Shown in pieces: positions 13,090 through 62,967 of a stretch of 64,000 nt of DNA (positions within the stretch are counted from its first letter, which is position 1; each line of letters opens with the position of its first letter). The position numbers and the translations under genes were made by a program. Under the pieces are notes generated by a model. It was given only the letters and a program-made list of their open reading frames with translations, searched no databases and was not told the origin of the DNA. Source of the DNA: Okamejei kenojei (taxonomy: Eukaryota); contig CM069142.1 in NCBI GenBank assembly GCA_035221665.1, positions 7,192,001-7,256,000 of the forward strand, given 5' to 3'.

Positions 13090-13728
13090 ATTTTTTACTA
13101 ATCAATTAAAGTGACAAATTAAGTACCATTAAGCAAGGAAGCAGGCGATCTCTGCTTTAAAAATATCCATCGACGGGCTCCACCACTGTCTGTGGCAATG
13201 AATTCTACAGATTTGAGGTCCTCTGGCAAAGGAAATTCCTCCTCATCTCCATTCTAAAGATACGTCCATTTGCTCTGAGGCTGTGCTCTCTGGTCCTGGA
13301 CTCTCCCGCTTGTTTCTTGTCGATTAAGACCAAGTCTGGGTCGCTGCACTTCAAAATCAGTACCGGTAATGTAGCTCATCCAATCCTGGAGTCCGAAATC
13401 TGTTGTGAAGTGAGATCCTCCCCAAATGTGACTACTTATCTCAGTCTGGGTAACTGATCGAACTGCTCGGTGATTCAGATAGATAGACATTTAGCATGAT
13501 GGCACTGTTCCAGTGGATCAGGAAGTTACTCAGGTTGAAATAATCCTTGTTGCTGGAAATGGAGTTCAGAGGTACATGTAGGAGATAAAACCCAGTACTT
13601 GACTCCAGCACAAATATAAATGGAAAGACACTATCCACACCACATTTGTTCCAGGTTTGGTAATGCTATAATTGTAACTGCATGAACCCTTCTGTTGCAA
13701 AAGGTCCGAGCTAATGCCTGTGAGAATT

Positions 13729-13835
13729 TCAACACCAGATTGTGATTGGAATAAAGATGATCAGCAAAAACACAATTGCCAAGGCAGCAAGTCCATAATG
13801 CTTGTGGTTGGGACTTTCCTCAAATGATGCCGGGT
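13729..13835 (-). CDS. HHLA2: HHLA2-like terminal TM exon (DPASFEESPNHKHYGLAALAIVFLLIIFIPITIWC*)
   Basis: tttcag| phase-1 acceptor, in frame with the IgV2 exon. About 20 hydrophobic residues followed by TGA. Confidence 0.7.
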
Positions 13836-15108
13836 CTGAAATTTGAACAAAAGACATTCTTAGCACAGATCAGAGAATTTACATAAAAAGATCCAACAAT
13901 AGTAGAGAATTAAAAAAAAAATTTAAACTACAAATCAAGAATAAATGCAGCAAAACTACTTTAATGACTGAGCGTTCCCTCAAAACAAAACTTGGGCAGT
14001 TTGTGTTCCAGCTTTTCAATTATTATTATTTTTTTAATACACAGAATTTGGTTAGTTGTTCCTCAATAAATGGTTTTAAAATACATTTAATAACGTTCTC
14101 AGCTTATATTTTTGTAAGGCCATTATCGCCTGATGTAATCATTACTAATTACAATAATTTGTTTATTTAATACTGTCCATTCACCCAGTGAAAAAGACTG
14201 CAAACTGATGTTAGATTTTATGGATCTCCATTTGAATGTACTCTCTAGTCTTCGTGGGAATAAAGGAAAGCTTTATTAAGTGATAATTAAACTGAATAAT
14301 TATACTGAATCACCTTTGCATTGAAGATTGCTGAAGTGAATCTTCACTAAGCAGCGGGAGATCTGTGGGAGAATAAGGAAGTGGTTGAAAAGGGCCGGTC
14401 TAGCCAGGTTTGGTTGCCACCAGCAATAAATGTGAATCTCACCTGTACCCTTCACATCCCACTCCTAGAAGGGAAATGCAGAGGTGGGAAGTGATAGGGG
14501 GTGATATGGTTGAGCCAGAGTGGATGAGGAGCAAAGGTGAATCAGGAACGGATCAGGAGGTGGGATGGATCAGGAGAGAGGGTGGACACAATGCTGGAGT
14601 AACTCAGCGGGACAGGCAGCATGTCTGCAGAGAAGGAATTGGAGAAGGAATTGGAGACGGAATTTGCACTTCGGAAGGGTTTCGACCCGAAACGTCACCC
14701 ATTCCTTCTCTCCAGATATGCAGCCTGTCCCGCTGAATTACTCCAGCATTTTGTGTCCACCTTCGATTTAAAGCAGCATCTGCAGTTCTTTCCTGGGGTG
14801 GAAGATTACAACCTTCACATGGTCCGCCCTGTTTCAACCCGGCATGCACAATCAAATAAGAACAAGTTGTCCTATAACTTTAGGCTGTGCACGCCATACG
14901 CAAGAAGAAGAGGTTCTTTCCTACACAAGGAGTGAGAGTGGATCAGGAGTTATGGTGGATTAAGAGCAATAGTAGATCAGGAGCCAGAATGGTTCAGGAG
15001 TGGGGGTGGATCTTTTTTTATGCTTCCCAGATGGTAACAAGTTTCACTTTCTTCAACATAGCTGAGTATTCTGGAGCAGTGCTTGTTTTGTAGACAATTA
15101 GGGGCATA

Positions 15109-16577
15109 TCTATCTTTATCTTTATACTTATAAAACTCTGATCTTGTATGTGGATGCATTTGTGTGTGTGTGTGATGCTTGTCTGCGATTCTCATCTCCT
15201 CGAAAACACGACGTGCTAACCGTGAAATGTTTATATATTCCGATAAAGATTCATGCCATGATGTCAAAAATCACCTAATCTAAAAATGTGATGCTTTATT
15301 ACTTGAGTAATTTATTAAATTATTGAGCCATTTATCACAAATCTGAAATATTTTATAAATTTAATGAGCTGATGACGTCACAATGGCTCTGCTCCTCGCG
15401 GCCCACTGCGCACTGTTTTCAATGTACAGCTTGGTGGGGACGTTTTCCCATGCGCTGCGAGTTACGTCACCGCCCCCCCCCACCCCCCCCCCACCCCCCC
15501 CCCCCCCCCCGACTTGCAGTCATTTGGTCGGCGCCCACTCGCAGTTCACTCGCACTCAGCCGGCCGCAGCGCCCCCGCCCTGCTCGTAGCCCAGCCGACG
15601 CCCCCCCCCCCCCCAACCCGGCCTCTGGATTGAAGCCCCTGAACACACAGTAATTTGTTGGGCTTCCGAGGTCCTGAGCTCTCCCGAGGCCAGCCTCTCG
15701 CTCGCAGTTGGCCCCACCTGCTCAGTGTCCGTGCCACCCACTCGCCGAGTTCGTCCGCCCTCTCACTCTTTCTCTCCCCCTCCCCACCCTCCCCCCACCT
15801 CTCCCCCTCCTCTCCCACACTCCCTCTCCCACTACCCCCTCCCCCCTCCACTTCCTCCCCACTGCCCCTCCCCTTCCCCCCCTCCCCTCTCCCCTCCCTC
15901 ATTCCCTCACCCCCCCCTCTCTAACCCCCTCTCCCCCTGCCTCCAATCCCCCTCTATCTCTGTCCCTGCCCCTCCCTCTCTAGATGTGCCTGCAAGGTGG
16001 GGGCTATGCATCAGTGGATAGGGCGGGGATGGGGTAAAATGAGCCAATTAATAATATTAATATAATATCAAGGGGTGTGGTTAGTGTGGGGGGAGGGGGG
16101 GTTTAGTGTGCGGGGGTGGGGGGGGATGTTTAGTGTGTGTGTGTGATGCCGCAGGCTGCCCCTCCTCCCTCAACCGTCCGTTGAGTGGACGAGACCCAAC
16201 GGGTCCCCCTTGGTCTTGTATGCTTATGGAAAACTCTGATCTGGATGTTTGTGTATTTATTTGTATGTGTATTTGTGCGTGTGTGTGTGTATTTGTTCCA
16301 CTGCGTTTCGCATCTTGAAAACATGACGCGCTAACGGTGAAATGTTTACATATTCGGATAGAGATTTCCGCCATAAATGTTAAAACTCGCCTAATCTTAA
16401 AATTTGATGCATTATTTCCCGAGTTATTTATGAAAATGTGCACAAATGTGCTGAAACAGAAACAATAACTGCTTTTCCACCTGCTTTTCCATTGTTGCTA
16501 TCCAAGTACACGGAGTTCTGCTCGTGGGAGACCAGGCCTCCCGTGGGACAGGGACCAATGGGTCCCACTTGGTCTAG
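15109..16577 (+). mobile_element. Non-autonomous Helitron-like element (two tandem units)
   Basis: A|TC start and CTAG|T end with a subterminal gggacc/ggtccc hairpin, no TSD. Internal duplicated unit (aaaactctgatct at about 15132 and 16229). Confidence 0.7.
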
Positions 16578-16777
16578 TATCAATTAAAAATTGAGCTACA
16601 TTTGTCAACAATATTTTTCAATCAGTATAATCCCCTCATCTGTTTTTATTTTGTGAACCATTAATTTCTAATTTAGTCATAGAACAATGAAGCAGGTCCT
16701 TCGGCCCAACTCATCCATGCTGACCGTGATGCCCCATCTAAGCTCGTCCCATTTGCCCACTTTTGCCCCATATCCCT

Positions 16778-16911
16778 CTAATCCCTTCCTGTGTCCATAA
16801 AATGAACAACTAAAAAGTATAATATCAACAATGTTACAAATTCAAATGCTAAGAATGTGAATATCTGGCTTTTAACTGTTCCCAGGGGCTGGTTTGGTGC
16901 ACCAATGTGTA
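16778..16911 (-). CDS. Possible alternative HHLA2 terminal hydrophobic exon (VHIGAPNQPLGTVKSQIFTFLAFEFVTLLILYFLVVHFMDTGRD*)
   Basis: tttctataccag| phase-1 acceptor in frame. Hydrophobic stretch. The stop is supplied by an adjacent CR1-tail fragment. Confidence 0.3.
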
Positions 16912-16999
16912 CTGGTATAGAAACACTTCTGTTCTGGAGGATGAACAGCAAAGACTCAACCACCCACTAGCACTACTGCTCAGGACCAACTTCTACCCT

Positions 17000-17275
17000 T
17001 TAGTTTGTTTGGAGATAGGGCTGGAAAACAGGCCCTTCGGCCCATCGAATCCACGTTGACCGCCCATACACTAGCACTATCCTACACACTAGGGACGACT
17101 TACAGCAGCCGATTAACCTACAAACCTGCAGGTCTTTGGGATGGGGGAGGAAACCGGAGAAATCCCACAGGGGAGAATGTGCAAACTCCGTACAGGCAGC
17201 ACCCGAGATCAGAATCGATCCTGGGTCTATGGCGTTGTGAGGCAGCAGCTCTACCGCTGCGCCACTGTGTCGTCC
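17000..17275 (-). mobile_element. tRNA-derived V-SINE (HE1-like)
   Basis: Antisense copy of the SINE at 34728-35035. Confidence 0.65.
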
Positions 17276-17376
17276 TTGTTTCCCACGTTTTATCGTATCG
17301 TTACGTTTAGTTCAACTAAAGGTTCGGCGCTCCTTGAAATGTTGAGAATGAAGCACACAGACGTGTGACGGCCTAC

Positions 17377-17682
17377 CTATTTGTAGTACGTTGGTGAATA
17401 TTTGCAACACATCTCGGGTCCTGATTTCACAGATATATTCTCCAGCATCCTCCAGCCTTGCATGGCCCAGTTGAAGTGTGGAAGAGTTCTGGGTGTTTAT
17501 CACTTCCACTCGCTCCTCACAACCTGAATCACCAGCATGCTGGGGCGCTGATTCACACAGTACTGCCAAGGAAGAGGTTTCTGAGTTCCTAAAACTCCAT
17601 TTAATTGTCAAATCTTGATCATTGCTAGGGGGATATTGGCAATGAAAGGCAGCAGGATGAGTCTCATTTGCTTTCAATGTGT
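17377..17682 (-). CDS. HHLA2: HHLA2-like membrane-proximal IgV exon
   Basis: tttaag|...g|gtaggc, 306 nt, phase 1-1. C...W...LQL...LEDAGEYICEI V-set signature. Confidence 0.85.
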
Positions 17683-19004
17683 CTTAAAAAAAATAAACAA
17701 AAACATGTAATGTTTTACATGAAACACAGTAAACTCTTTGACGTGAGATCTCACAAGGACACAAAGTGGTGGAGTAACTCAGCGGGTGAGGCAGCATCTG
17801 TGGAGAACAGGGATAGGTCACGCTTCGGAGAGGGAATATTCGTTAGATTCTGTTCTCCAGAGATGCTGAGTTATTCCAGCGCTTTGTGTCCTTTTGTTTA
17901 TTAACCAGCATCTGCATTTCCTCGTTTCCAATACTTGGAATGGAATAGAATCTCTTTGTTTTCCTGAGCTGTGGAAGGGACTGGTACCACTTTGGGTGCT
18001 GGTGAATGTACATATAACAAAGCCAGTGATTGTTTAACACACAGGAAGCGATGCAGCTAGCCTGTATTCCAAAGCAGGGAAAATCCATCACTTGTATCTA
18101 CACATTATATGGTGTATTGAAATGTCCGACACATTCAGAATCATTTATACCATCTGCCAGGACCCGGGGGCCTGAGCTACAGGGAGAGGTTGGGCAGGCT
18201 AGGACTTTATTCCCTGGAGCGCAGGTGGCTGAGGGGTGATCTTATAGAGGTGTAAAAAAATCATGAGGGGAATAGATGGGATAAATGCACCTGTTTTACC
18301 CTGAGTAGCGGACTCAAGAACCCGAGGACCTGGGTTTAAGGTGAGAGGGCAACGATTTAATAGGAACCTGAGGGGCAACTTTTTCACCCACAGGAGGATA
18401 GGTATGTGGAACGAGCTGCCAGAGGAGGCAGGTACTATAACAACATTTAAAAGACATTTAGACGGGCATGGATGGGAAATGTTTAGAGGGATAAGGGCCA
18501 AACGGGTTGGTGGGACTAGTGTAGATGGCTTATCTGGGTCGGCATGGACAAGTTGGGCCTAAGGGCCTTTTTCCGTGCTGGATGAGTCTCAGAAGGGTTG
18601 GTGAAATGAACATAGACACCAGAAACTGCAGATGTTGGTTTACAAAAATAGACACAAAGTGCTCAGCAGGTCAGGCAGCAGCACCTCTGGGGAACATGGA
18701 TAGGTGACATTTCGGCTCTGAGGAAGTGACCTGAATTTTCTGGTGAAATTCCAACGTGGCAGACACTTTGGGGGGAAGTGTGGACAGAGAACTGCTGGCA
18801 TTTTATATCAAATTCTGGCCCAAATCACTTCATGTCATGGGTTTGCATGGTACTCCAGTCAGCAATGTAATAGACATCACCCTGCAGGAAATGATAGGAA
18901 TCAAAATAATCCAGGGGCCAGATCCAGCTCAGTTAAGGTGTTCTGTAGTAAAATCATCGAACAATGGGAATAGGTTAAGGTGGGAACTTGCGAACAAGTC
19001 TATC

Positions 19005-19935
19005 GGCATGTGTACAAAGGAACTGCAGATGCTGGTTTAAACCGAAGATAGACACAAAATGCTGGAGTAACTCAGCGGGACAGGCAGCATCTCTGGAGAG
19101 AAGGAATGGGTGTGGTGTCGGGTCGAAACCTGTCTTCAGACTGAGTCACGGGAAAGGGAATCGAGTGATATAGATGGTTTTGTGGAGAGATATAGAACAA
19201 TGAATGAAAGATATGCAAAAAAGTAGCGATGATAAAGGAAACAGGTCATTGTTGGCTGTTTGTTTGGTGAGAATAAATTACAGACAGTGAGACTCAGCAA
19301 GACGACTTTAAAGCTGGTACGACTTGGGTGGGGGAGGGATGGAGAGGGAGGGAATGCAGGGGTTACTTCAAGCTGGAGAAATCAATATTCATACCGAAGA
19401 TACACTCAAAATGCTAGAGTAACTGAGCGGGACAGGCAGCATCTATGGAGAGACGGAATGGGCGACCTTTCGGGTCGAGACCCTTCTTCAGGCTGATATC
19501 AGGGTAGGGACAGGGGTAGAATGTAGTCGGAGGCAGTAAGACTGGGAAGGGGGAGCAGATGGAGAGAGAGGGAAAGCAAGGGTTATTTGAAGTTAGATAA
19601 GTCAATATTCATACCGCTGGGTAAGCTACCCAAGCGAAATATGAGGTGCTGTTCCTCCAATTTGCGCTGGGCCTCTGACAATGGAGGAGGCCCAGGACAG
19701 AAAGGTCAGTTTGGGAATGGTAGGGGGGGTTAAAGTGCTGAGCCACTGGGAGATCAGGTAGGTTAAGGCGGACTGAGCGGAGGTGTTCAGCGAAACGATC
19801 ACCGAGCCTGCGCTTGGACTCGCTGATGTGCAGGAGTTGACACCTGGGACAGCGGATACAGTCGATGAGGTTGGAGGAGGTGCAAGTGAACCTCTGCCTC
19901 ACCTGGGAAGACTGTCGGGGTCCTTGGACGGACAT
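19005..19935 (-). mobile_element. Penelope-like element fragments (GIY-YIG region and tandem terminal repeats)
   Basis: ORF 19609-20022: FTCTSSNLIDCIRCPRC...KRRLGDRFAEHLRSV...VAQHFN. Confidence 0.85.
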
Positions 19936-20099
19936 CTTGGCATCATCACTTAATTTGACATGAGTTTGAATGACAGAAACTGCTACAGATGCAAGCACAG
20001 TATACAGTCTATCCAGTATCACCTTCTATCCAGTTAACCATGATCACAGACTGGAAGAAAGGATGGCCAGGTCTCCTGTAATTTATCCTTTATCATTAC

Positions 20100-20384
20100 C
20101 TTGCATTTTCCAGGATGCAGTCCAAGACTTTTGCAATCGTTCATTCCTTATGGTGCACTCGTACATTGTCCTTGACGTATTATCAGCCTTCAGAATGCTT
20201 TCCACGTTGTGAAGACCTTCCGAGTCAATAGTGTTACTTGATATTGCATTATTAGTTAGGTCGATCCCATTCTCATCGTGCCATGTTATTAACGGCTGTG
20301 GATAAACACCCATCACACCACAGGAGATGTTGACCTCAGCATGCAGCGTGTTTGGGGGCGAAAATGTCAGGTTCTTACTGTCAC
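20100..20384 (-). CDS. HHLA2: HHLA2-like IgC (B7-type) exon
   Basis: ttccag|...g|gtaatg, 285 nt, phase 1-1. ISCGVMGVYPQPLITW...YECTIRN...SWTASWKM is typical of the B7/HHLA2 C domain. Confidence 0.88.
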
Positions 20385-20734
20385 CTGGAAGGAAGCAATA
20401 ACCCACTCAATCCTTAGACAATGGAGCTGTCTCTAGATACACAGACGGCAATCAACATGTGGAGAGATAACAAGCTGCCACTTCACTTTCAGCTCCTTTA
20501 GTTTAGTTTAGTTTAGTTTAGTTTAGAGATACAGCATTGAAGCAGTTCCTTCGGCCCACCAAGTCCACACCAGTTCTATGTTATTCCACTTTCCCATCCA
20601 CTCTACACACTGGGGGCAACTTACAGAGGGCCAATGAACCTACAAACCCGCACCTCTTTGTGATGTGGGAGGAATCCGGACCCGGGGGAAATCCACAAGG
20701 TCACAGTTTAGCCTCACTCTGACTATGGAGGAGA

Positions 20735-22140
20735 TCGAGGACAGAAAGTGTCCAGCAACCGGGAGATCAGGTAGGTTCAGGCGGGCTGAGCGAAGGCGTT
20801 CCGCGAAACCATCGTCCAGTCTGCGTTTGGTCTCACCGATGTATAAGAGTCCACATCTTGAGCAACAGATACAGTAGATGAGGTTGGAGGAGGTGCAAGT
20901 GAACCTCTGCCTATCCTGAAAGGACAGTCAGGGTCCCTACACAGAGTCGAGGGAGGAGGTATCGCAACAGGTGTTGCATCTCCTGCGGTTGCAGGGGAAG
21001 GTACCTGGGGAGGGGGTGGTTTGGGTGGGAAGGGATGAGTTAACCAGGGAGTTGCGGAGGGAACGGTCTCTACGGAAGGCAGAAAGGGGTGGAGATGGGA
21101 AAATGTGGCTAGTGGTGGGATCCGACTGGAGGTGACGAAAATGTCGGAGGATTATGTATCTATGTGACGGCTGTTGGTGTGAAAGGTTAAGGGGACTCTG
21201 TTGTGACTAGGGGGAGGGGGAGCAAGGGCAGAGCTATGGGGTACCGAGGAGACATGAATGAGGGCCTCATCTATGATGGGAGAGGGGAATCCTAAAGAAT
21301 GAGGACATCTCGGATGTCCTGGTATGGAACACCTCATCTTGGGCACAGATGCTGCGTAGACGGAGGAATTTGGAGTAGGGGATAGAATCTTTGCAGGAAA
21401 CAAGGTGGGAAGAAGTGTAGTCAAGATAGTTGTGGGAGTCAGTGGGTTTGTAATAGACTTCAGTCGATAGTCTATCTCCTGTGATGGTGACTGTGAGATG
21501 AAGAAAGGGGAGGTAGGTGTCAGAAATCGGTGGTGCATGGGTGCAGGAGGTAGCACCGATGCAAGCATCAATTTAACGGAGATAGAGTTCGGGGATAGGG
21601 TCAGTGTACGTCTGGAACAGGGATTGTTCAACGTACCCTACAAAGAGGCAGGCATAGCTGGGGCCCATGCGGGTGCCCATAGCTACGCCTTGGGCTTGGA
21701 GGAAGTGGGAGGATCGAAGGAGTTGTTAAGGATGAGGACCAGCTCCGCTAGGCGGAGGAGAATGTTAGTAGAGGGAAATTTGCTGGTTCTGCTATCGAGG
21801 AAGACACGGAAGGCCTTAAGGCCTTCCTGGTGGGGGATGGAGGTGTAGAGTTACTGAAAGTCCGTAGTAAAGATGAGGGAGTGGGAACTCGGAAAGCAGA
21901 AGTAATTGAAGAGACAAAGACTGTGTGAGGTGTCTTGGACATAGGTCGGGATGGATTGGACCAGGGGGGGATAGGATGGAGTCGAGGTACGTGGAAATTA
22001 TTTCAGTGGGACAGGAGCAGGCAGAAACAATGGGTCTGCCAGGGCAGTTGTGTTTATGGATTTTGGGGAGAAGGTAAAACTGGGCCACGTGGGGCTGGGG
22101 AACGATAAGGTTGGAGGCTGTGGAAGGCAAACATCCAGAA
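20735..22140 (-). mobile_element. Penelope-like element, degenerate RT plus GIY-YIG
   Basis: [26 protein letters not shown] motif. Frameshifted RT continues into the endonuclease. Confidence 0.85.
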
Positions 22141-22459
22141 GGTTAGTAGAGGGAAATTGAATGAGGAGCCAACGGAGGGCTTTAAGGCCTTCCCTTTAGA
22201 TATAAATACAATCAAGTCTACCTCGAGTACAACAGGCAGAGCAAAGGTTCAGAATATAGTTCTCAGCATTGTAGCGCACCGTTCCAGAGACAAAGTCCAA
22301 CGTCCGCAATGGGGTAGAGGTGAATCGGACAGTGCCCTAGCTTATGGAAGGACCGTTCAGAAGCCTGATAGCAGAGGGGAAGAAGCTGTTTATTCAGAGG
22401 GGGTAGGGTGTGATAAATAAATAAAAGATTAAGGTGAGGCATTTTGAGAGCTGGATGGG

Positions 22460-22536
22460 CTGACATGGTACAATGTGTGCAGCAGTAACTGGATGTGGGG
22501 ATGCCAGTTACTGCTGCACACATTGTACCATGTCAG
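22460..22536. repeat. Perfect 33-bp inverted repeat with 11-nt spacer
   Basis: 22460-22492 is the exact reverse complement of 22504-22536. Confidence 0.95.
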
Positions 22537-24500
22537 GAGGAGGAAGTACTGACACTTTTGAAAAATATAAAAGTCTCCACCTGACAGGATATTCCCTAGG
22601 ACATCAGGACCGTGACAACGGAGGATTCATCGCATTGCGAAAAAGGACCTCGTTCCACGGATAAACTGGAAACATTGGGTAATCACAGTTGAGCCAGAAA
22701 GGCTCCAGTTTCGCAGCACTGACTCAATGTACATCCCTCGGCCCACTGAGTCGGCATTTGCTGAACTACATCTTGTCAAAATAGACATCCCCGTGGAACA
22801 GAGAGATCAGGAATAAACTGTGCACACTATCCTACACACACTAATTTTACATTTTTATACAATTGTTACACCAAGCCAATTAACCTACAAACCTATAAGT
22901 TTTTGGAGTGTGGGAGGAAACCGAAGATCTCGGAGAAAACCCACGGGGAGAACATACAAACTTCGTACATACCCCGTAAGGATCGGCAGCACCCGGGTGA
23001 CTCTACACACACACAGGTGCTGTAGTGTGGGAGGCCGAGCTCGGACACAACCCACGGGAAGAACATCTACCGCTAGTCAGGATCGAACACCCGACGCCAC
23101 CGAGCTACCGAAAAACCGCAAGGAAACGTCCTGCCACCAGGAAAGTAACACAGATGCACGAAAGGGATAGACTAGGGGGATGTTACTGTCTCCAGGGGCA
23201 TGTGCACAAATTGGTCATGGTTAAGATAATGAGAATGAGAACGGATAATGTGCTGGGATGAACGAGATAATACAAGTTGTCATCCACTTGTGGGGTCAGG
23301 GAAAGAGCGTTCACGTCGCGGCCCTGTCTCCACCAATCTGTCCAACCCACCACCACCAGCACACACAAGAAGCGACAACACTCTGGCTGAACAACTTCTA
23401 ATCTTGTGTGTGGACTCGATAAGAAGAGTCCGCACCCGTTTGTTCAGGGTTTAGGAGAAAATTAACCAAATAGAATGTGAAAGCTGGTAATGTTTGACTT
23501 TGATTTGTAAATTATTTTCCAATCTGTTTCAAGTACGATATGCATTATTGGCCCATTTCCGTAAAACAATGAGTCCCAGGGGAAAACAGTCAAGTCATTG
23601 CTTTGCAAATACATTTGCCCCTCCCTGTTTTATTTTGGTGCCAGACAGGAATGAAGAATTGTTACGATGCTTTTTAAATGTTTCACTTTGACAATCTATC
23701 CCCAACCCTTGTACTAACAGCCCACAATCTGTCGTGCCAACTTAATCCTCAAGGAAAGACACAGCTTCCCTGTCCTGGTCTCCCTGGATCTGCTTCCACC
23801 TTTCACGGGAGTAGCGTTGAAAGTTGCATCAGCGCAGCCTGCCTGCCCTTCCACACAACTGCATTGGTGAAGAGCAGCAAGCCAGACTGTGGTCAGTCAG
23901 CTCAGTCTGTGCTGGTCTGGCCCCTACATCTCCCTCCTCAGGGACAGGCAGCATCTCTGGAGAGAAGGAACGGGTGACAGTTTGGGTCGAGACCCTTCCT
24001 CAGACCTTGTTCAGAGCAGTGCTTGTTTTGTAGACAGGAAGGGGCACAAATCAATTAAAAACTTCAGTCTGAAGAAGGGTCTCGATCCGAAAGGTCAGCC
24101 ACTCCTTCTCTCGAGAGATGATGCCTGTCCCGCTGAGTTACTCCAGCATTGTGTGTCTATCTTCAGTGTATGAACCAATATCTGTAGTTCTTTCCTACAC
24201 AGGTACCAACTGAACCTCCCCTGTTCCAGACCCTGCCATATTTTTTATTTAGTTTTACTTTGCTCTGCATTTGGTTTTTTGATCCTTTGTTGAGTACTTA
24301 CAATGAGATTTGTTAACACTCGACTTGGCCGAATAACAGCATTTGACAGGCATTTGTCCAGGTACATGGATAGGAAAGGTTAAGAGGGATATGGGCCAAA
24401 CTCGGGCAGGTGGGATTGGTGTAGATGGGGCATGTTGGTCAGCACGGGCATGTTGGGCAGAAGGGCCTGTTCCCGTGCTGTGTGACGGGATGACTCGAAA

Positions 24501-25105
24501 GGGCCTGTCCCACTTGGCCGTCATTTACGCGTCAGATGTAAAATAGGTCGACGCGTAGTGACGCGTGGGGTGTGCGTGGGTGACACACGCATTGTGCATG
24601 GCGAGGCGTGGAATTGCATGCAGTGGCGTGCGATATCACGCAGCGCTCCAGCATGTCGTAGTGTAACTAAATCCTCGCGCGCCACCTGCGTGACATATCA
24701 CTGACGCATTGGTTGCGCACGCTGATGCATTGGCGTCACACGCTGTATCCCGTGGTGACGCATGGTTACGTCAACGTCCGTAAACATGCGACGCCCTGCG
24801 CCCCCCATACGCAGTCGGCCCGCCTTTTATGCGTCATGTAACCTCTAACCTGGTCCACACAGACCGCTTCCTGGGTTTCTTACTAGCCTTTCTTGTTGTA
24901 CTCCTGCCTGACTGATCTGTCAGTATGAGGGCTGCTGCTAACACAAGTCCCTGTTGTTGCTGTAGCAATAAAATCTGTAGTTCTTCCGTGATGGTCATGA
25001 TGCAGAATAGGGAAGCAGGGTGTTCTAATGACGTCACGACGCGTCCACCTATTTTACATATGACGCATAAATGGGGCGCAAATGACGGCCAAGTGGGACA
25101 GGCCC
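24501..25105 (-). mobile_element. PIF/Harbinger-like non-autonomous element
   Basis: 26-bp perfect TIR gggcctgtcccacttggccgtcattt. Internal remnant ...LAAALIL...KKPRKRSVWTR resembles Harbinger transposase N-termini. Confidence 0.75.
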
Positions 25106-25142
25106 TAAACAGGACTGACAGACATATAAATGAGGTTCTGAC

Positions 25143-25469
25143 CAGCCACTTGCAGGTCCGCGTTGGTCTCCACCTTCCCTCTCGAAGTACTGACGTAACA
25201 CCGGTACAATCTCTCGTCGCGGATGCTGACGGCCGTCAGATGGAGCGATGCATTCCCTCTCGCTATCTCACTGTGGAAGAGTCCCGTCCTTCCCTTGTAG
25301 TGTGGGTCCTGGTTACCCAGCTGATCTGCTCCTCGGTAAAAGCTGTGCACCACCTGGGTGCTTTGGCCCACACTGTACATCCAGTGCAGCACAATCTCCG
25401 GCAGAGGGGCCGGTGGGAATGTGCAGGGCAGCACCACGTCTCTGGAGACAACGGCTACCAAGCTCGGAC
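25143..25469 (-). CDS. HHLA2: HHLA2-like N-terminal IgV exon
   Basis: ttgcag|...g|gtcaga, 327 nt, phase 1-1. DVVLPCTF...VVHSFYRGADQLGNQDPHYKGRTGLFHSEIARGNASL...YRCYVST is the B7-H3/H4/HHLA2-type V signature. V-C-V order and CIP2A linkage point to HHLA2. Confidence 0.9.
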
Positions 25470-25688
25470 CTGCAAGCAAACCGCCACATTGACCGTTACT
25501 AATGGGAAACGTATCGTCCACATCTCCTGCATCAACGAGAGCACGATTCACAGCCATCCGCTTACTTTAGCTCAGAGATACAGCACGGAAACAGGCCCTT
25601 CAGCCCACTGAGCCCATTCCGACCATCGACCACCCATTCACACTCGTTCTATGTTATCCCACTTTCTCACCCACTCCCAACACACTAG

Positions 25689-39739: not shown

Positions 39740-39876
39740 TCACGATTCACGGGCACAGTTCTGTCCGAGCAGCAGGTAGATGGAATGTTCATTCCCATGG
39801 TGCTCCCTCCTGGCCGGCTCCACATTCTCTACACTCTCCACCCTGGACCACTTCACCGATCCCACCACCTTCTTCA
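39740..39876 (-). CDS. Candidate cytoplasmic/terminal exon of the V-C1 receptor (MKKVVGSVKWSRVESVENVEPARREHHGNEHSIYLLLGQNCARES*)
   Basis: Strong acceptor ttttcctctttggtttattgcag|, phase 1, in frame with the TM exon. KK follows the TM; SIYLLL fits the ITIM consensus. Confidence 0.55.
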
Positions 39877-54424: not shown

Positions 54425-54517
54425 TGGACATTGAGCATGCACCGATTACAGCAGCCGTCAGCACTGTTAGACCGCACGAAGCCAGTATTATCCATGGCAG
54501 TTTGTCTCTGGAATGAC
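54425..54517 (-). CDS. TM exon of the V-C1 receptor (GHSRDKLPWIILASCGLTVLTAAVIGACSMS)
   Basis: ctgtgcag|...a|gtgagt, 93 nt, phase 1-1. Uncharged hydrophobic helix. Confidence 0.7.
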
Positions 54518-57140: not shown

Positions 57141-59862
57141 GGGTGGTGCTAGAGAGGGTGGTGTTAGAGAGGGTGGTGCTAGAGGGGGTGGTGCTAGAGA
57201 GGGTGGTGCTAGAGAGGGTGGTGCTAGAGAGGGTGTGTGCTAGAGAGGGGTGGTGCTAGAGAGGGTGGTGCTAGAGAGGGTGGTGCTAGAGAGGGTGGTG
57301 CTAGAGAGGGTGGTGCTAGAGGGGGTGGTGCTAGAGGGGGTGGTGCTAGAGAGGGTGGTGCTAGAGAGGGTGGTGCTAGAGAGGGTGGTGCTAGTAGAGG
57401 GTGGTGCTAGAGAGGGTGGTGCTAGAGGGGTGGTTGCTAGAGAGGGTGGTGCTAGAGAGGGTGGTGCTAGAGAGAGGGTGGTGCTAGAGAGGGTGGTGCT
57501 AGAGAGGGTGGTGCTAGAGAGGGTGGTGCTAGAGAGGGGTGGTGCTAGAGAGGTGGCTAGAGAGGGTGGTGCTAGAGAGGGTGTGCTAGAGGGGTGGTGC
57601 TAGAGGGGTGGTGTTAGAGAGGGTGGTGCTAGAGAGGGTGTGGAGGGGGGTGGTGCTAGAGAGAGGTGGTGCTTAGAGAGGGTGGTGCTAGAGGGGTTGA
57701 GAGGGTGTTGGCTAGAGAGGGGGTGGTTAGAGAGGGTGGTGCTAGAGAGGAGGGTGGTGCTAGAGAGGGTGGCTAGAGAGGGTGGTGCTAGAGAGGGTTG
57801 GTGCTAGAGAGGGTGGTGCTAGAGAGGGTGTGTTAGAGAGGGTGGTTGCTAGAGAGGGTGGTGCTAGAGAGGGTGGTTGCTAGAGAGGGTGGTGCTAGAG
57901 GGTGGTGCTAGAGAGGGGTGGTGCTAGAGAGGGTGGTGCTAGAGTGGGTGGTGCTAGAGAGGGTGGTGCTAGAGAGGGTGGTGCTAGAGAGGGTGGTGCT
58001 AGAGAGGAGGTGGTGCTAGAGGGGGTGGTACTAGAGGGTGGTGCTAGCTAGAGAGGGTGGTGCTAGAGAGGGTGGTGCTAGAGAGGGTGGTGCTAGAGGG
58101 AGTGGGTGCTAGAGAGAGGGTGGTGCTAGAGAGGGTGGTGCTAGAGAGGGTGGTGCTAGAGGGGGTGGTGCTAGAGGGGTGGTGCTAGAGAGGGTGGTGC
58201 TAGAGAGGGTGGTGCTAGAGAGGGTGGTGCTAGAGAGGGTGGTGCTAGAGAGGGTGGTGCTAGAGAGGGTGGTGCTAGAGAGGGTGGTGCTAGAGAGGGT
58301 GGTGCTTAGAGAGGGTGGTGCTAGAGAGGGTGGTGCTAGAGAGGGTGGTGCTAGAGGGTGGTGCTAGAGAGGGTGGTGCTAGAGAGGGTGGTGCTAGAGA
58401 GGGTGGTGCTAGAGAGGGTGGTGCTAGAGAGGGTGGTGCTAGAGAGGGTGTGCTAGAGAGGGTGGTGCTAGAGGGTGGTGCTAGAGAGGGTGGTGCTAGA
58501 GAGGGGTGGTGCTAGAGAGGGTGGTGCTAGAGAGGGTGGTGCTAGAGAGGGTGGTGCTAGAGGGTGTTGCTAGAGAGGGTGGTGCTAGAGAGGGTGGTGC
58601 TAGAGAGGGTGGTGCTAGAGAGGGTGGTGCTAGAGAGGGGTGGTGCTAGAGAGGGGTGGTGCTAGAGAGGGTGGTGCTAGAGAGGGTGGTTGCTAGAGAG
58701 GGTGGTGCTAGAGAGGGTGGTGCTAGAGAGGGTGGTCTAGAGAGGGTGGTGTTAGAGAGGGTGGTGCTAGAGAGGGTGGTGCTAGAGAGGGTGGTGCTAG
58801 AGAGGGTGGTGCTAGAGAGGGTGGTGCTAGAGAGGGTGGTGCTAGAGAGGGTGGTGCTAGAGGGGTGGTGCTAGAGAGGGGGTGCTAGAGGGTGGTGCTA
58901 GAGAGGGTGGTGCTAGAGGGGGTGGTGCTAGAGGGTGGTGCTAGGGGGTGGTGCTAGAGGTGGTGCTAGGGTGGTGCTAGAGAGGGTAGAGGGGGTGGTG
59001 CTAGAGGCGTGGTGCTAGAGAGGGTGGTGTAGAGAGGGTGGTGTGGTGCTAGAGAGGGTGGTGCTAGAGGGTGGTGTTAGAGGGGTGGTGCTAGCTAGAG
59101 GGGGTGGTGCTAGAGTGGTGCTAGAGAGGGTGGTGCTAGTGGGGGTGGTGCTAGAGGGGTGGTGCTAGAGAGGGTGGTTGCTAGAGAGGGTGGTGCTAGT
59201 GGTGCTAGAGGGGTGGTGCTAGAGGGGTGGTGCTAGAGAGGGTGGTGCTAGAGAGTGGTGCTAGAGAGGGTGGTGCTAGAGAGGGTGGTGCTAGAGGGTG
59301 GTGCTAGAGAGGGTGGTGCTAGAGAGGTGGTGCTAGAGAGGGTGGTGCTAGAGAGTGGTGCTAGAGAGGGTGGTGCTAGAGAGGGTGGTGCTAGAGAGGG
59401 TGGTGCTAGAGAGGGTGGTGCTAGAGGGGTGGTGCTAGTGCTAGAGAGAGAGAGGGTGGTGCTAGAGAGGGTGGTGCTAGAGAGGGTGCTAGAGGGTGGT
59501 GCTAGAGAGGGTGGTGCTAGAGAGGGGTGGTGCTAGAGAGGGTAGTGGAGGGTGGTGCTAGAGAGGGGTGGTGCTAGAGAGGGGTGGTGCTAGAGAGGGT
59601 GGGCTAGAGTGGTGGAGCTAGAGAGGGTGGTGCTAGAGAGGGTGTTGCCTAGAGAGGGTGGTGCTAGAGAGGTGGTGAGAGGGTGTTGCTAGAGAGAGGG
59701 TGTGCTAGAGAGGGTGGAGAGGGTGGTGCTAGAGGGTTGTTGCTAGAGAGGGTGGTGCTAGAGAGGGTGGTGCTAGAGAGGGTGGTGCTAGAGAGGGTGG
59801 TGCTAGAGAGGGTGGTGCTAGAGAGGGTGGTGCTAGAGAGGGTGGTGCTAGAGAGGGTGGTG
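57141..59862. repeat. About 2.7-kb 15-bp minisatellite (GAGAGGGTGGTGCTA)n
   Basis: Direct inspection. Confidence 0.97.
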
Positions 59863-59932
59863 TTATGTGTAACACAGTTGTTTGGAAATTGAGTGTCTGA
59901 CTAATTTGGTGATTTTGTAACATGGTGGTGGG

Positions 59933-60291: not shown

Positions 60292-60383
60292 ACGGATTTG
60301 TGTTTTTTTTGGATTTTGTATCGTGTTCGTAATCAAATAAATTATTTTTGTTACAAAAAAAAGAAAAGCAGTGTGAATCTCAC

Positions 60384-60689
60384 CTGTGCTGCTGGCGTGT
60401 GCTCGTTCAGTGATGGGTTTGTGGAGCGTGGAGTGGTTCACCTGGCAGGTGTAGTCTCCACCCTGGCCCCAGGCGGTGAGGGTGAGGTTGAGGAAGCTGG
60501 AGATGGAGAAGGAGCCATCGGGGTTGGGGGAGAGGGGCCCGGTCTCCGTCCCGTTGGTGAGCTGGTGTCCGTCTGTGAACCAGGACACCTGGATGGGGCC
60601 GGGGTAGAAGTCCAGCGACGTGCAGGTGAGCCGGACCCCCGGGGTGGGGCTGGACACGGGCTCCGCTCTCACCCAGACCCGCGGACGAG
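60384..60689 (-). CDS. C1-set Ig domain exon of the receptor
   Basis: cccacag|...g|gtgaga, 306 nt, phase 1-1. LTCTSLDFYPGPIQVSW...NPDGSFSISSFL...YTCQVNHSTL is a canonical C1 signature. Confidence 0.92.
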
Positions 60690-62264
60690 CTGTGGGTCAA
60701 GGGCGGTGAGTTAATGGACGGCGGTGGCTAGAGATGTCCCCACTGCACCCACACGGTAGATGACCCACCACTCTGTGCCCCCACAATATGATGAGCAGAT
60801 GTTGCCCACTGGTCTCCAGCCTCACTGACATTGGGGGTTCAGGCTTGTGCTCAGTAAAGTGCACAGGGCCATATTTTGCACGTGAACAAGCTTCTCCTCA
60901 ACCCACAGTCCATCTCTAGAATCGGACAAACAAGGACCAATTTTCACAAGTTCACACTATAGGAGTAGAATTAGGCCATTCGGCCCATCGAGTCAACTCC
61001 ACCATTCAATCATGGCTGATCTCTGCCTCCCAATCCCATTTTCCTGCCTTCTCCCTGTAACCCTTGACGCCCGTTCAAACCAAGGACGACCAGGGCCGTA
61101 ATCAAGTTTGAAGCACTGGCCATTGGCCATGTACGCAATAATAACTGGGCTGCCAGCATGGGGAGGCCTGGCTGGAGAGGTGGTGGTCACACGATTACTG
61201 TGTCATTCCACTCCCACCCAAACTCCGACCCTCCAAACAGTCGTGCTCCCACTGCCATGAACCCGGTGATGTAACCGTGGCGATGGGCACCGTGTCAGTG
61301 TTGTCCTCACCTGCATCCTCACAAACACAGTCTGCTGGCTCGCTGCTGCTGCTCAACGGAGGAACAGAACAACGCCAGTGCCCAATGATCCCACTCCATT
61401 CCCCACATGTCCCTGCAACTCTCTGTAACCCAATCCCCGGAAACACCACCTCACATTCATCTTGGGGAACCCACGACCCCTTGGTATCAACGATGGATTC
61501 TCCAATTTTACTTCCACAAACACTCCCCTCCCCTACACCCCCCCCCCTCCACAGCACCCCCACCCTCACCAAACCCCCTTCTGTTCCACATCGCCCCCTT
61601 CCCTGCCAACCCCCATCCCCAACCCCCCTTCCCACCCCTCCCCAAGCCACACTCTCCTCCCCCTCCCCCGCCCTCCACCCCATCCCCCCTCCCATCCCCA
61701 CTCCCCTCCCCTACCCATGCCCATCCCCCCCTCCCCTCCCCATCCGTCCCCCCCTCCCCTCCCCAACCTCCCATCCCCATCCCAGCCCGCCCAAGCCCGC
61801 CCAAGACCACAAGAAACTGCAGAGTTGTGGACACATCCCAGTCCATCACACAGACCAGACTCTCCACATCAACTCCACCTGCACCACACGGCCTCAGACA
61901 AATACCCTCAGCATAATCAAGGACCACTCAAACCCCGGTCATTCCTGCTTCTCCCCGCTCCCATCCGGCAGAAGGTACAAGAGCCTGAAGGCTCCTAGCA
62001 CAAGGTTTTTCCCCACTGTTATCAGACTTGTGAATAACCCTCCCATAAGCTACAGTATGGTCCCAATCTTCCAAACTACCTCTTTGCAGCCCTTGCACTT
62101 TTTTAATCTGCACTTTCTCTGTAGCTGTAATACTCTGCTCTGTTTATTTTCTCTTTGCATTACCTGTTGTACTCATGTGTGGGATGATTAGACCGGTCAG
62201 CACCCAAAACAATGTTTTTGCCTGTACCTCAGTACAAAATAAAGCATTTCTGACCCCCACTCAC

Positions 62265-62624
62265 CGTTCACTGTCAGCCTTGTACCTTCTCCTTTTGCTG
62301 TCAACATCGGGGGAGGTATTTCAACAGACAATTGACAAAAGTAAACGTCAGAGTCATTCAGGTGAACGTTATAGATGATTAAAGATGAGGAGTTGGCCGA
62401 GAGATCCAGAGTAACATTAAAACCACTCGTGCAGAACTGAAGCGAACCGGAGCTGTGTTTATTTTCCATACGCTGACACAATGCCCGTGCACTGGAGTTC
62501 CTCGTCCACACAATCCTCATCTGATCTCCATCTCCACTGCTGTAGGAACAGTTTATCCGAGCCATATCCCCCACCAGCACCTCCATCTCTGGTGTCTGCG
62601 ACACAGCCGGGGTCTTGCTCTTCA
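62265..62624 (-). CDS. TMIGD2/CD28H-like VJ-type IgV exon
   Basis: cttcctcag|...g|gtgagt, 360 nt, phase 1-1. RIVWTR..ALCQ...GSLQFC...VHLNDSDVYFCQLSVEIPPPMLTAKGEGTRLTV. Confidence 0.9.
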
Positions 62625-62669
62625 CTGAGGAAGGAAGAAGATGAACTGATTGGAATCTCCAGTGTATAA

Positions 62670-62967
62670 TGAAGATATGACGTGTTGAGATAGGATGAAG
62701 ATATGAGGATATGATGTATTGAGATATGATGTAGATATGAGGATATGACGTGTTGCGATATGATGTAGACATGAGGATATGATGTATTGAGATATGAAGA
62801 TATGAGGATATGATGTATTGAGATATGATGAAGAAGTGAAGATATAATGTATTGATATTTGATGGTTATGATGTAGATATGAGGACATGATGTATTGAGA
62901 TATGGTGAAGATATGAGGATATGATGTGTTGAGATATGAAGTAGATATGAGGATATGATGTGTTGAG
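62670..62967. repeat. GATAT-rich degenerate tandem repeat
   Basis: Direct inspection. Confidence 0.85.

What the first reader, a model, noticed from the sequence alone, without database searches (positions are those of the whole stretch)
62290..62490. Hybrid ligand-binding loop VEIPPPM plus an extra cysteine pair
Seen: the FG loop (62305-62325) reads VEIPPPM, and two non-canonical Cys (ALCQ, QFCT) lie between the C-strand Trp and the E strand. Known: CD28 and CTLA4 bind B7 through MYPPPY and have a second intradomain disulfide in this region; TMIGD2 has VEIP (recalled). Inferred: the loop combines both signatures, which suggests an ancestral B7-binding state and possibly broader B7 specificity.
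Basis: partly seen in the sequence, partly recalled or inferred. Interest (0 to 1): 0.7.

Follow-up and report, generated by a model that had tools for sequence, protein, structure and literature searches.

The report
Skate V-C1 receptor beside HHLA2
The flagged loop and cysteines are real but usual for shark and skate CD28H-type receptors; the gene itself carries an extra antibody-type constant domain, lies next to a B7 (HHLA2-like) gene, and is likely the inhibitory member of an apparently uncatalogued activating/inhibitory receptor pair.

Summary
PPP is kept in 22 of 22 aligned V domains and both Cys in 21 of 22.

The 'hybrid' reading is not new. Quiniou 2024 already reports EIPPP in cartilaginous-fish CD28H and calls it primordial, and three other CD28H-type genes of this genome carry it. 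The second Cys is not at the CD28 position; it has the spacing of amniote TMIGD2.

The gene is not CD28H. It continues into a C1-set exon, a transmembrane exon and a tail with an ITIM-type motif (SIYLLL). A paralogue 143 kb away has an Arg in its transmembrane segment, and the two C1 exons are 97% identical while the V exons are 42%. V-C-V HHLA2-like genes lie beside and between them. The family occurs in 16 named cartilaginous fish and was not found in the supplements of the 2024 CD28-family survey.

Best reading: the likely inhibitory arm of a paired V-C1 receptor family, with HHLA2 as prime candidate ligand. Binding is untested, and three papers that catalogue VJ-C1 or B7 genes could not be read.

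The parts
62265..62624 (-). IgV exon (germline-joined, J-like G strand), phase 1/1
62305..62325 (-). FG-loop motif VEIPPPM; IPPP invariant in 22 of 22, Met only here
62476..62478 (-). extra Cys49 (C' strand); aligns with CD28's first extra Cys
62431..62433 (-). extra Cys64 (end of C'' strand); TMIGD2-type spacing, not the CD28 position
60384..60689 (-). C1-set Ig constant exon, phase 1/1; 97.3% identical over 294 bp to the paralogue's C1 exon
   Evidence: (C1-set E=5e-20)
54425..54517 (-). transmembrane exon without a charged residue in the hydrophobic span, phase 1/1
39740..39876 (-). cytoplasmic exon to the stop; ITIM-type SIYLLL at 39784-39767
13717..25473 (-). neighbouring B7-family gene, V1 (25473-25141), C (20391-20089), V2 (17683-17372), TM (13854-13717); HHLA2-like, candidate ligand; leader exon not found for this copy

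Best explanation
The flagged exon is the V domain of a skate gene built leader-V-C1-transmembrane-tail, and the product is likely an inhibitory immune receptor that would bind a B7-family ligand through its EIPPP loop, with the neighbouring HHLA2-like protein as the predicted first candidate. Shown: the five-exon open frame, the fold, the conservation, the tail motif, a paralogue with a transmembrane Arg, the near-identical C1 exons and the physical linkage to HHLA2-like genes. Inferred: C49-C64 forms a C'-C'' disulfide that fixes the edge of the binding face; PPP shapes the FG loop as in CD28/CTLA-4; the C1 domain acts as a spacer or dimerisation unit; the tail Tyr recruits SHP-1/2; the Arg paralogue signals through an ITAM adaptor, as NKp30 does (recalled). 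The two genes would give opposite signals, comparable to human KIR3DL3 (inhibitory) and TMIGD2 (activating) on HHLA2.
For: Exons with intact phase-1 junctions; leader at G000:C12:7,257,515. The same V+C1 architecture in 22 database proteins from 16 named cartilaginous fish (one model lacks the V), including a Callorhinchus NP_/AFK cDNA-type record. A tail [A/V/G/T]-[I/V]-YxxL in 11 of 11 A-type models that have a tail; strict S/I/V/L-x-YxxL in 4 of these and in the window. A TM Arg in 7 of 7 B-type models with a called TM and in this genome's B gene. A and B have consecutive accessions in Carcharodon and Mustelus. Within-species A-vs-B identity is 84-100% for C1 but 44-61% for V in 5 of 5 species. 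The V domains form their own group apart from CD28H/HL1/HL2/X (SH-aLRT 98; 97/85). The neighbour's closest database relative is named HHLA2 in Amblyraja, on a chromosome of the same length as the receptor's. BBX lies about 250 kb away. Human TMIGD2 binds HHLA2 IgV1 (review passage).
Against: No binding, signalling or expression data for this species. Linkage does not prove a ligand: true CD28H, the known HHLA2 receptor, exists on another contig of this genome. Adjacency to HHLA2 is shown only in this genome, and IFT57 lies on another contig. The tail has one YxxL only, and 7 of 11 orthologue tails have A, G or T at the -2 position. One A-type protein (Carcharodon) also has an Arg near the start of its TM. 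Four models (P0014, P0016, P0017, P0020) have no usable TM and were left out of the TM counts. VIA-align ranks TCR V domains above CD28-family ones, and the trees do not resolve the sister group (43/27). The disulfide distance could not be measured.
Confidence: 0.58

Rival explanations
1. One reading: an ancestral CD28/CTLA4-TMIGD2 hybrid that binds a broad set of B7 ligands (CD80/86-like as well as HHLA2).
For: PPP invariant; the first extra Cys aligns with CD28's; Foldseek top ten are CTLA-4 or CD28; GxG in the G strand in 19 of 22.
Against: No flanking Tyr in 22 of 22; second Cys six residues off CD28's; EIPPP is common to this genome's CD28H, HL1 and HL2 and already in print; no specificity data.
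Confidence: 0.12
2. A non-rearranging antigen-receptor-like VJ-C1 gene (PRARP, VJC1 or UrIg kind) whose ligand is not a B7 protein; PPP is structural and the linkage to HHLA2 is incidental.
For: V-C1 layout with a J-like G strand; the C1 matches Ig constant domains; VIA-align top rows are TCR V domains, Z about 17, rmsd about 2; V-PPP-C1 proteins also occur in axolotl and a sucker fish.
Against: EIPPP and the TMIGD2-type Cys spacing tie the V domain to B7 receptors; the axolotl and turtle V domains do not group with this family; UrIg genes are MHC- or AgRC-linked and have several C domains.
Confidence: 0.22
3. It is the CD28H/TMIGD2 orthologue, or CD28HL1/2, or CD28X.
For: EIP motif, and extra Cys spacing like amniote TMIGD2.
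Against: Those four genes are present separately on contigs C28, C1, C1 and C6, with CDR3s matching the published ones. This gene has a C1 domain, no YxNx motif, and falls in a separate group.
Confidence: 0.03
4. A germline-joined Ig light-chain gene, as several database names suggest, or a pseudogene.
For: Source names such as 'immunoglobulin lambda-1 light chain-like'; V-C1 layout.
Against: TM and tail exons in frame, conserved across the models; no stop in any exon; a WTR/WKR C strand and GEG G strand instead of the light-chain motifs (motifs recalled).
Confidence: 0.03

Closest known systems
CD28H/TMIGD2 and CD28HL1-3, CD28X (Quiniou et al. 2024, PMC11599192)
   Same: IgV with EIP(PP) in CDR3 and GxG G strand; extra Cys pair spaced like amniote TMIGD2; type I membrane protein
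   Different: Extra C1 domain; YxxL tail instead of YxNx; own locus beside HHLA2-like genes and BBX; a paralogue with a TM Arg; four accession or gene numbers of this family and two further terms found nowhere in the paper's 9 supplements
CD28 / CTLA-4
   Same: Fold (TM-score 0.74-0.79), PPP in the FG loop, first extra Cys
   Different: No MY..Y around PPP, second Cys shifted six residues, C1 domain, different tail
NKp30 (NCR3) (recalled, not tested)
   Same: VJ-type V domain that binds a B7 ligand; TM Arg as in the B paralogue
   Different: NKp30 has a single V domain, is MHC-linked and has no inhibitory twin
Non-rearranging VJ-C1 genes: PRARP, VJC1, UrIg/UrIg2
   Same: Germline-joined VJ exon followed by a C1 exon
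   Different: UrIg is MHC- or AgRC-linked with several C domains; PRARP and VJC1 sequences could not be compared because the papers were not held
Human KIR3DL3 + TMIGD2 on HHLA2
   Same: Opposite signals on one B7 ligand, the logic proposed here
   Different: In human the two receptors are unrelated and not linked to HHLA2; here they would be paralogues beside it

Membership tests
CD28 family (definition of Quiniou 2024) | IgV domain with conserved CDR3 motif (PPP or EIP) | tested here: met
CD28 family (definition of Quiniou 2024) | single extracellular V domain (IgV-TM-IC) | tested here: not met
   C1 exon between V and TM, also in orthologues
CD28 family (definition of Quiniou 2024) | Tyr-based cytoplasmic motif | tested here: met
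   SIYLLL in the window; YxxL in 11 of 11 A-type tails
CD28 family (definition of Quiniou 2024) | binds a B7-family ligand | not tested
CD28H/TMIGD2 orthologue | EIP in CDR3 | tested here: met
   EIP in 20 of 22, QIP in 2
CD28H/TMIGD2 orthologue | YxNx tail motif | tested here: not met
   present only in the third (C-type) paralogue of bamboo sharks
CD28H/TMIGD2 orthologue | groups with chondrichthyan CD28H in a tree | tested here: not met
   this genome's CD28H is on C28
CD28H/TMIGD2 orthologue | FSD1/STAP2 synteny | not tested
   not searched directly; neighbours identified are an HHLA2-like gene and BBX
CD28/CTLA4 | [M/L/I]-[Y/F]-PPP-Y loop | tested here: not met
   I before PPP in 22 of 22, no Tyr after it
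CD28/CTLA4 | second disulfide with its distal Cys in the D strand | tested here: not met
   CD28's Cys aligns with V70, in strand 68-73 of the model
Paired immune receptors | linked paralogues, one with an ITIM and one with a charged TM residue | tested here: met
   143 kb apart on C12
Paired immune receptors | opposite signalling shown | not testable with these tools
   needs cell assays
PRARP / VJC1 genes | orthology by sequence and synteny | tested here: inconclusive
   reference papers not held; unnamed tetrapod V-C1 hits group apart

The most novel reading that the evidence does not exclude
Cartilaginous fish keep a receptor-ligand gene cassette in which HHLA2 sits among its own dedicated receptors: an ITIM-bearing and an Arg-bearing paralogue (and in some sharks a third, YxNx-bearing one), each made of a CD28H-type V domain joined to an antigen-receptor-type C1 domain. 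This would be a V-C1 link between the CD28/NKp30 costimulators and the pre-RAG antigen receptor, and an ancient counterpart of the human TMIGD2/KIR3DL3 dual control of HHLA2.
Probability: 0.3. Interest if true: 0.8.

Novelty: new variant of a known kind. Interest (0 to 1): 0.52.

Why it matters
The 2024 survey fixed the jawed-vertebrate CD28 family at nine single-V members and filtered on that architecture. A conserved V-C1 branch with an inhibitory/activating pair would extend it. It names a testable ligand from linkage, bears on how dual control of the checkpoint ligand HHLA2 arose, and adds a germline VJ-C1 membrane receptor to the candidates related to the antigen-receptor precursor. The motif that was flagged matters little by itself.

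Tried and rejected
Expression: no RNA holder listed. Three contig sets of uncertain kind laid on 60300-62700 gave no cover of the V exon and none over most of the C1 exon; this is no evidence either way.
A TM-like frame at 56980-56880 was my first guess; I rejected it because the orthologue-matching TM exon is at 54517-54425.
CD47 as a synteny marker: no match, and the control rang nowhere. IFT57 is on C2.
Third (C-type) paralogue: not found in this genome; best hits were A and B.
Bony-vertebrate orthologues: the one search of representatives (single V query) gave V-C1 proteins with PPP in axolotl and Myxocyprinus, but they do not group with the family, so orthology is not claimed.
No TMIGD2 or NKp30 chain appeared among the rows shown; that does not exclude them. 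ESM Atlas gave only generic V-C1 clusters.
The careful treekit tree did not finish (one search is the quick tree); for I dropped 10 of 50 rows (4 long branches, 6 redundant).
Earlier-findings look-ups returned nothing.
Papers not held: Flajnik 2012, Ohta and Flajnik 2015, Ohta 2019, Fu 2019.

Full report
1. Observation. The region encodes an IgV domain on the minus strand. The exon runs 62624-62265 between AG and GT in phase 1 and matches Pfam V-set (E=5e-12) and, more weakly, the ICOS V-set model (E=9e-7). An AlphaFold model built on a 22-row alignment (mean pLDDT 90.5) puts PPP (103-105) between the F and G strands, C49 in strand 47-54 and C64 at the end of strand 60-64. A cross-strand C'-C'' disulfide is inferred from this; no distance was measured. 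Foldseek's first ten matches are CTLA-4 or CD28 (TM-score 0.74-0.79). VIA-align ranks TCR V domains first (Z about 17, rmsd about 2 over about 110 residues).

2. Conservation. The organism is a skate, inferred from 92% and 88% identity to Amblyraja and Leucoraja proteins. A search with the sawfish protein gave 22 proteins, from 16 named sharks, rays, skates and a chimaera plus one unnamed record. The window and the 21 of these that have a V domain were aligned. I-P-P-P is invariant in 22 of 22, E precedes it in 20 of 22, each extra Cys is kept in 21 of 22 (Callorhinchus lacks both), GxG is kept in 19 of 22, and the Met is found in 1 of 22.

3. The hybrid reading. I read the whole main text of Quiniou et al. 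2024 (PMC11599192; parts 1-5 of 6), supplement S4 and parts 1 and 6 of S3. [quoted passage not shown] This genome's CD28H (C28), CD28HL1 and CD28HL2 (C1) V exons all read EIPPP, and CD28X (C6) reads PLPPP. In the HMMER alignment with human CD28, C49 matches CD28's first extra Cys, but CD28's second Cys aligns with V70, six residues after C64. [quoted passage not shown] So EIP and the Cys pair are both TMIGD2-type, PPP is the chondrichthyan norm, and the Tyr residues of MYPPPY, which contact CD80/86 (recalled), are missing. Nothing points to broader specificity.

4. What the gene is. It is none of the published members. Downstream lie a C1-set exon (60689-60384; E=5e-20; best matches are Ig constant domains), a transmembrane exon (54517-54425) and a tail exon (39876-39740) with SIYLLL; the leader is 1.5 kb beyond the window. 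All junctions are phase 1 and no exon has a stop. A Callorhinchus NP_/AFK record shows the same full layout. In two trees of V domains the family separates from CD28H, HL1, HL2 and CD28X (SH-aLRT 98 in the quick 50-row tree; 97/85 in the 40-row tree). Its sister group is unresolved, and the domain borders were set with a profile of the family itself. Labels of non-family rows in these trees are mine, from CDR3 motifs or source names. Four accession or gene numbers of family members, one further accession and a family motif were found in none of the paper's 9 supplements; its inclusion rule required V-TM-IC.

5. A pair. A second V-C1 gene lies at C12:7.39-7.40 Mb, 143 kb away, with 42% V identity, EIPPP and both Cys. 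Its TM exon carries an Arg near the start. Among database models, 11 of 11 A-type tails have a YxxL motif (4 fit the strict ITIM consensus, as does the window), and 7 of 7 B-type models with a called TM have the Arg. Four models had no usable TM, and one A-type protein also has an Arg there. A and B have consecutive accessions in two species. In 5 of 5 species with both, A-vs-B identity is 84-100% in C1 but 44-61% in V, while between-species C1 identity is 67-88%. In this genome the two C1 exons are 97.3% identical over 294 bp, with no V-exon match at DNA level. This points to gene conversion of the C1 exon (inference). Bamboo sharks have a third neighbour with PPP, both Cys, C1 and a YxNx tail; it was not found here.

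6. Neighbourhood. About 14 kb past the stop, on the same strand, is a V-C-V-TM B7-family gene. Its closest database relative (85%) is named HHLA2 in Amblyraja, on a record of the same length as the receptor's chromosome. Human HHLA2 has the same V-C-V layout, lies at 3q13.13 and binds TMIGD2 through V1 (passages of review PMC10173190). Between A and B lie a complete inverted copy (C12:7,343,855-7,358,083) and two further leader-V1 pieces; no leader was found for the window's copy. BBX, a neighbour of HHLA2 in human (recalled), is about 250 kb from the V exon; IFT57 is on another contig.

7. Mechanism. Most likely the V domain binds a B7 V domain through the FG loop, the C1 domain extends or dimerises the receptor, and the tail Tyr recruits SHP phosphatases; B would signal through an ITAM adaptor. 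Only the anatomy is shown. My odds: inhibitory tail about 0.7, a B7 ligand about 0.65, HHLA2 specifically about 0.4. The main doubt is that CD28H itself is present elsewhere, and linkage alone is weak evidence of a ligand.

8. Novelty. The flagged motif is already known. For the V-C1 pair, eight answered literature searches aimed at it or its relatives listed no description. I saw passages only of PMC10751288, PMC12227049 and PMC12151841 and a term search of the PMC3964593 supplement with no hits. Flajnik 2012, Ohta and Flajnik 2015, Ohta 2019 and Fu 2019 could not be read, and their text or supplements may list this locus; I put that at about 0.3. Verdict: new variant of a known kind, interest 0.52.

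Noticed in passing
L004 (G000:C1:171,876,853-171,877,149): A V exon whose CDR3 matches published CD28HL2 and groups with HL2-like proteins, although Quiniou 2024 reports CD28HL2 as absent from rays.
   Followed up: partly
window 17683-17372 (-): The second V domain of the HHLA2-like gene also has two extra Cys between the C-strand Trp and the E strand, kept in Amblyraja and Cetorhinus.
   Followed up: no
L035:2955-6446 and L046:629-1461 (G000:C12:7.449-7.457 Mb): An inverted, broken third copy: A-type leader and truncated V exon followed by B-type TM and tail exons; likely a chimeric pseudogene from a segmental duplication.
   Followed up: partly
window 56712-56332 (-): An open frame 81% identical to the segment that the Amblyraja gene model uses in place of the TM exon; either an annotation error or an alternative exon giving a TM-less form.
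   Followed up: no
L038:4213-8353 (G000:C12:7.166-7.170 Mb): Endogenous retrovirus-like stretch with protease, reverse transcriptase and envelope Pfam matches, about 40 kb beyond the HHLA2-like gene; observed only.
   Followed up: no
L043:1225-1554 (G000:C12:7,113,225): Exon for part of an SH2 domain resembling SHIP and SAP/EAT-2.
   Followed up: partly
L008 (C42) and L015 (C25): Further single-exon VJ-type V domains with P-rich CDR3; the L008 type has an extra Cys pair and tandem-V relatives with Tyr-bearing tails in Heterodontus. They do not match the motifs in S4 of Quiniou 2024.
   Followed up: partly
P0062 (axolotl), P0128 (Myxocyprinus), P0111 (Pelusios): V domains with PPP in bony vertebrates, the first two followed by C1 domains; relation to this family unresolved.
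   Followed up: partly
window 57150-59870: About 2.7 kb tandem array of a roughly 16-bp unit in the intron between the C1 and TM exons.
   Followed up: no
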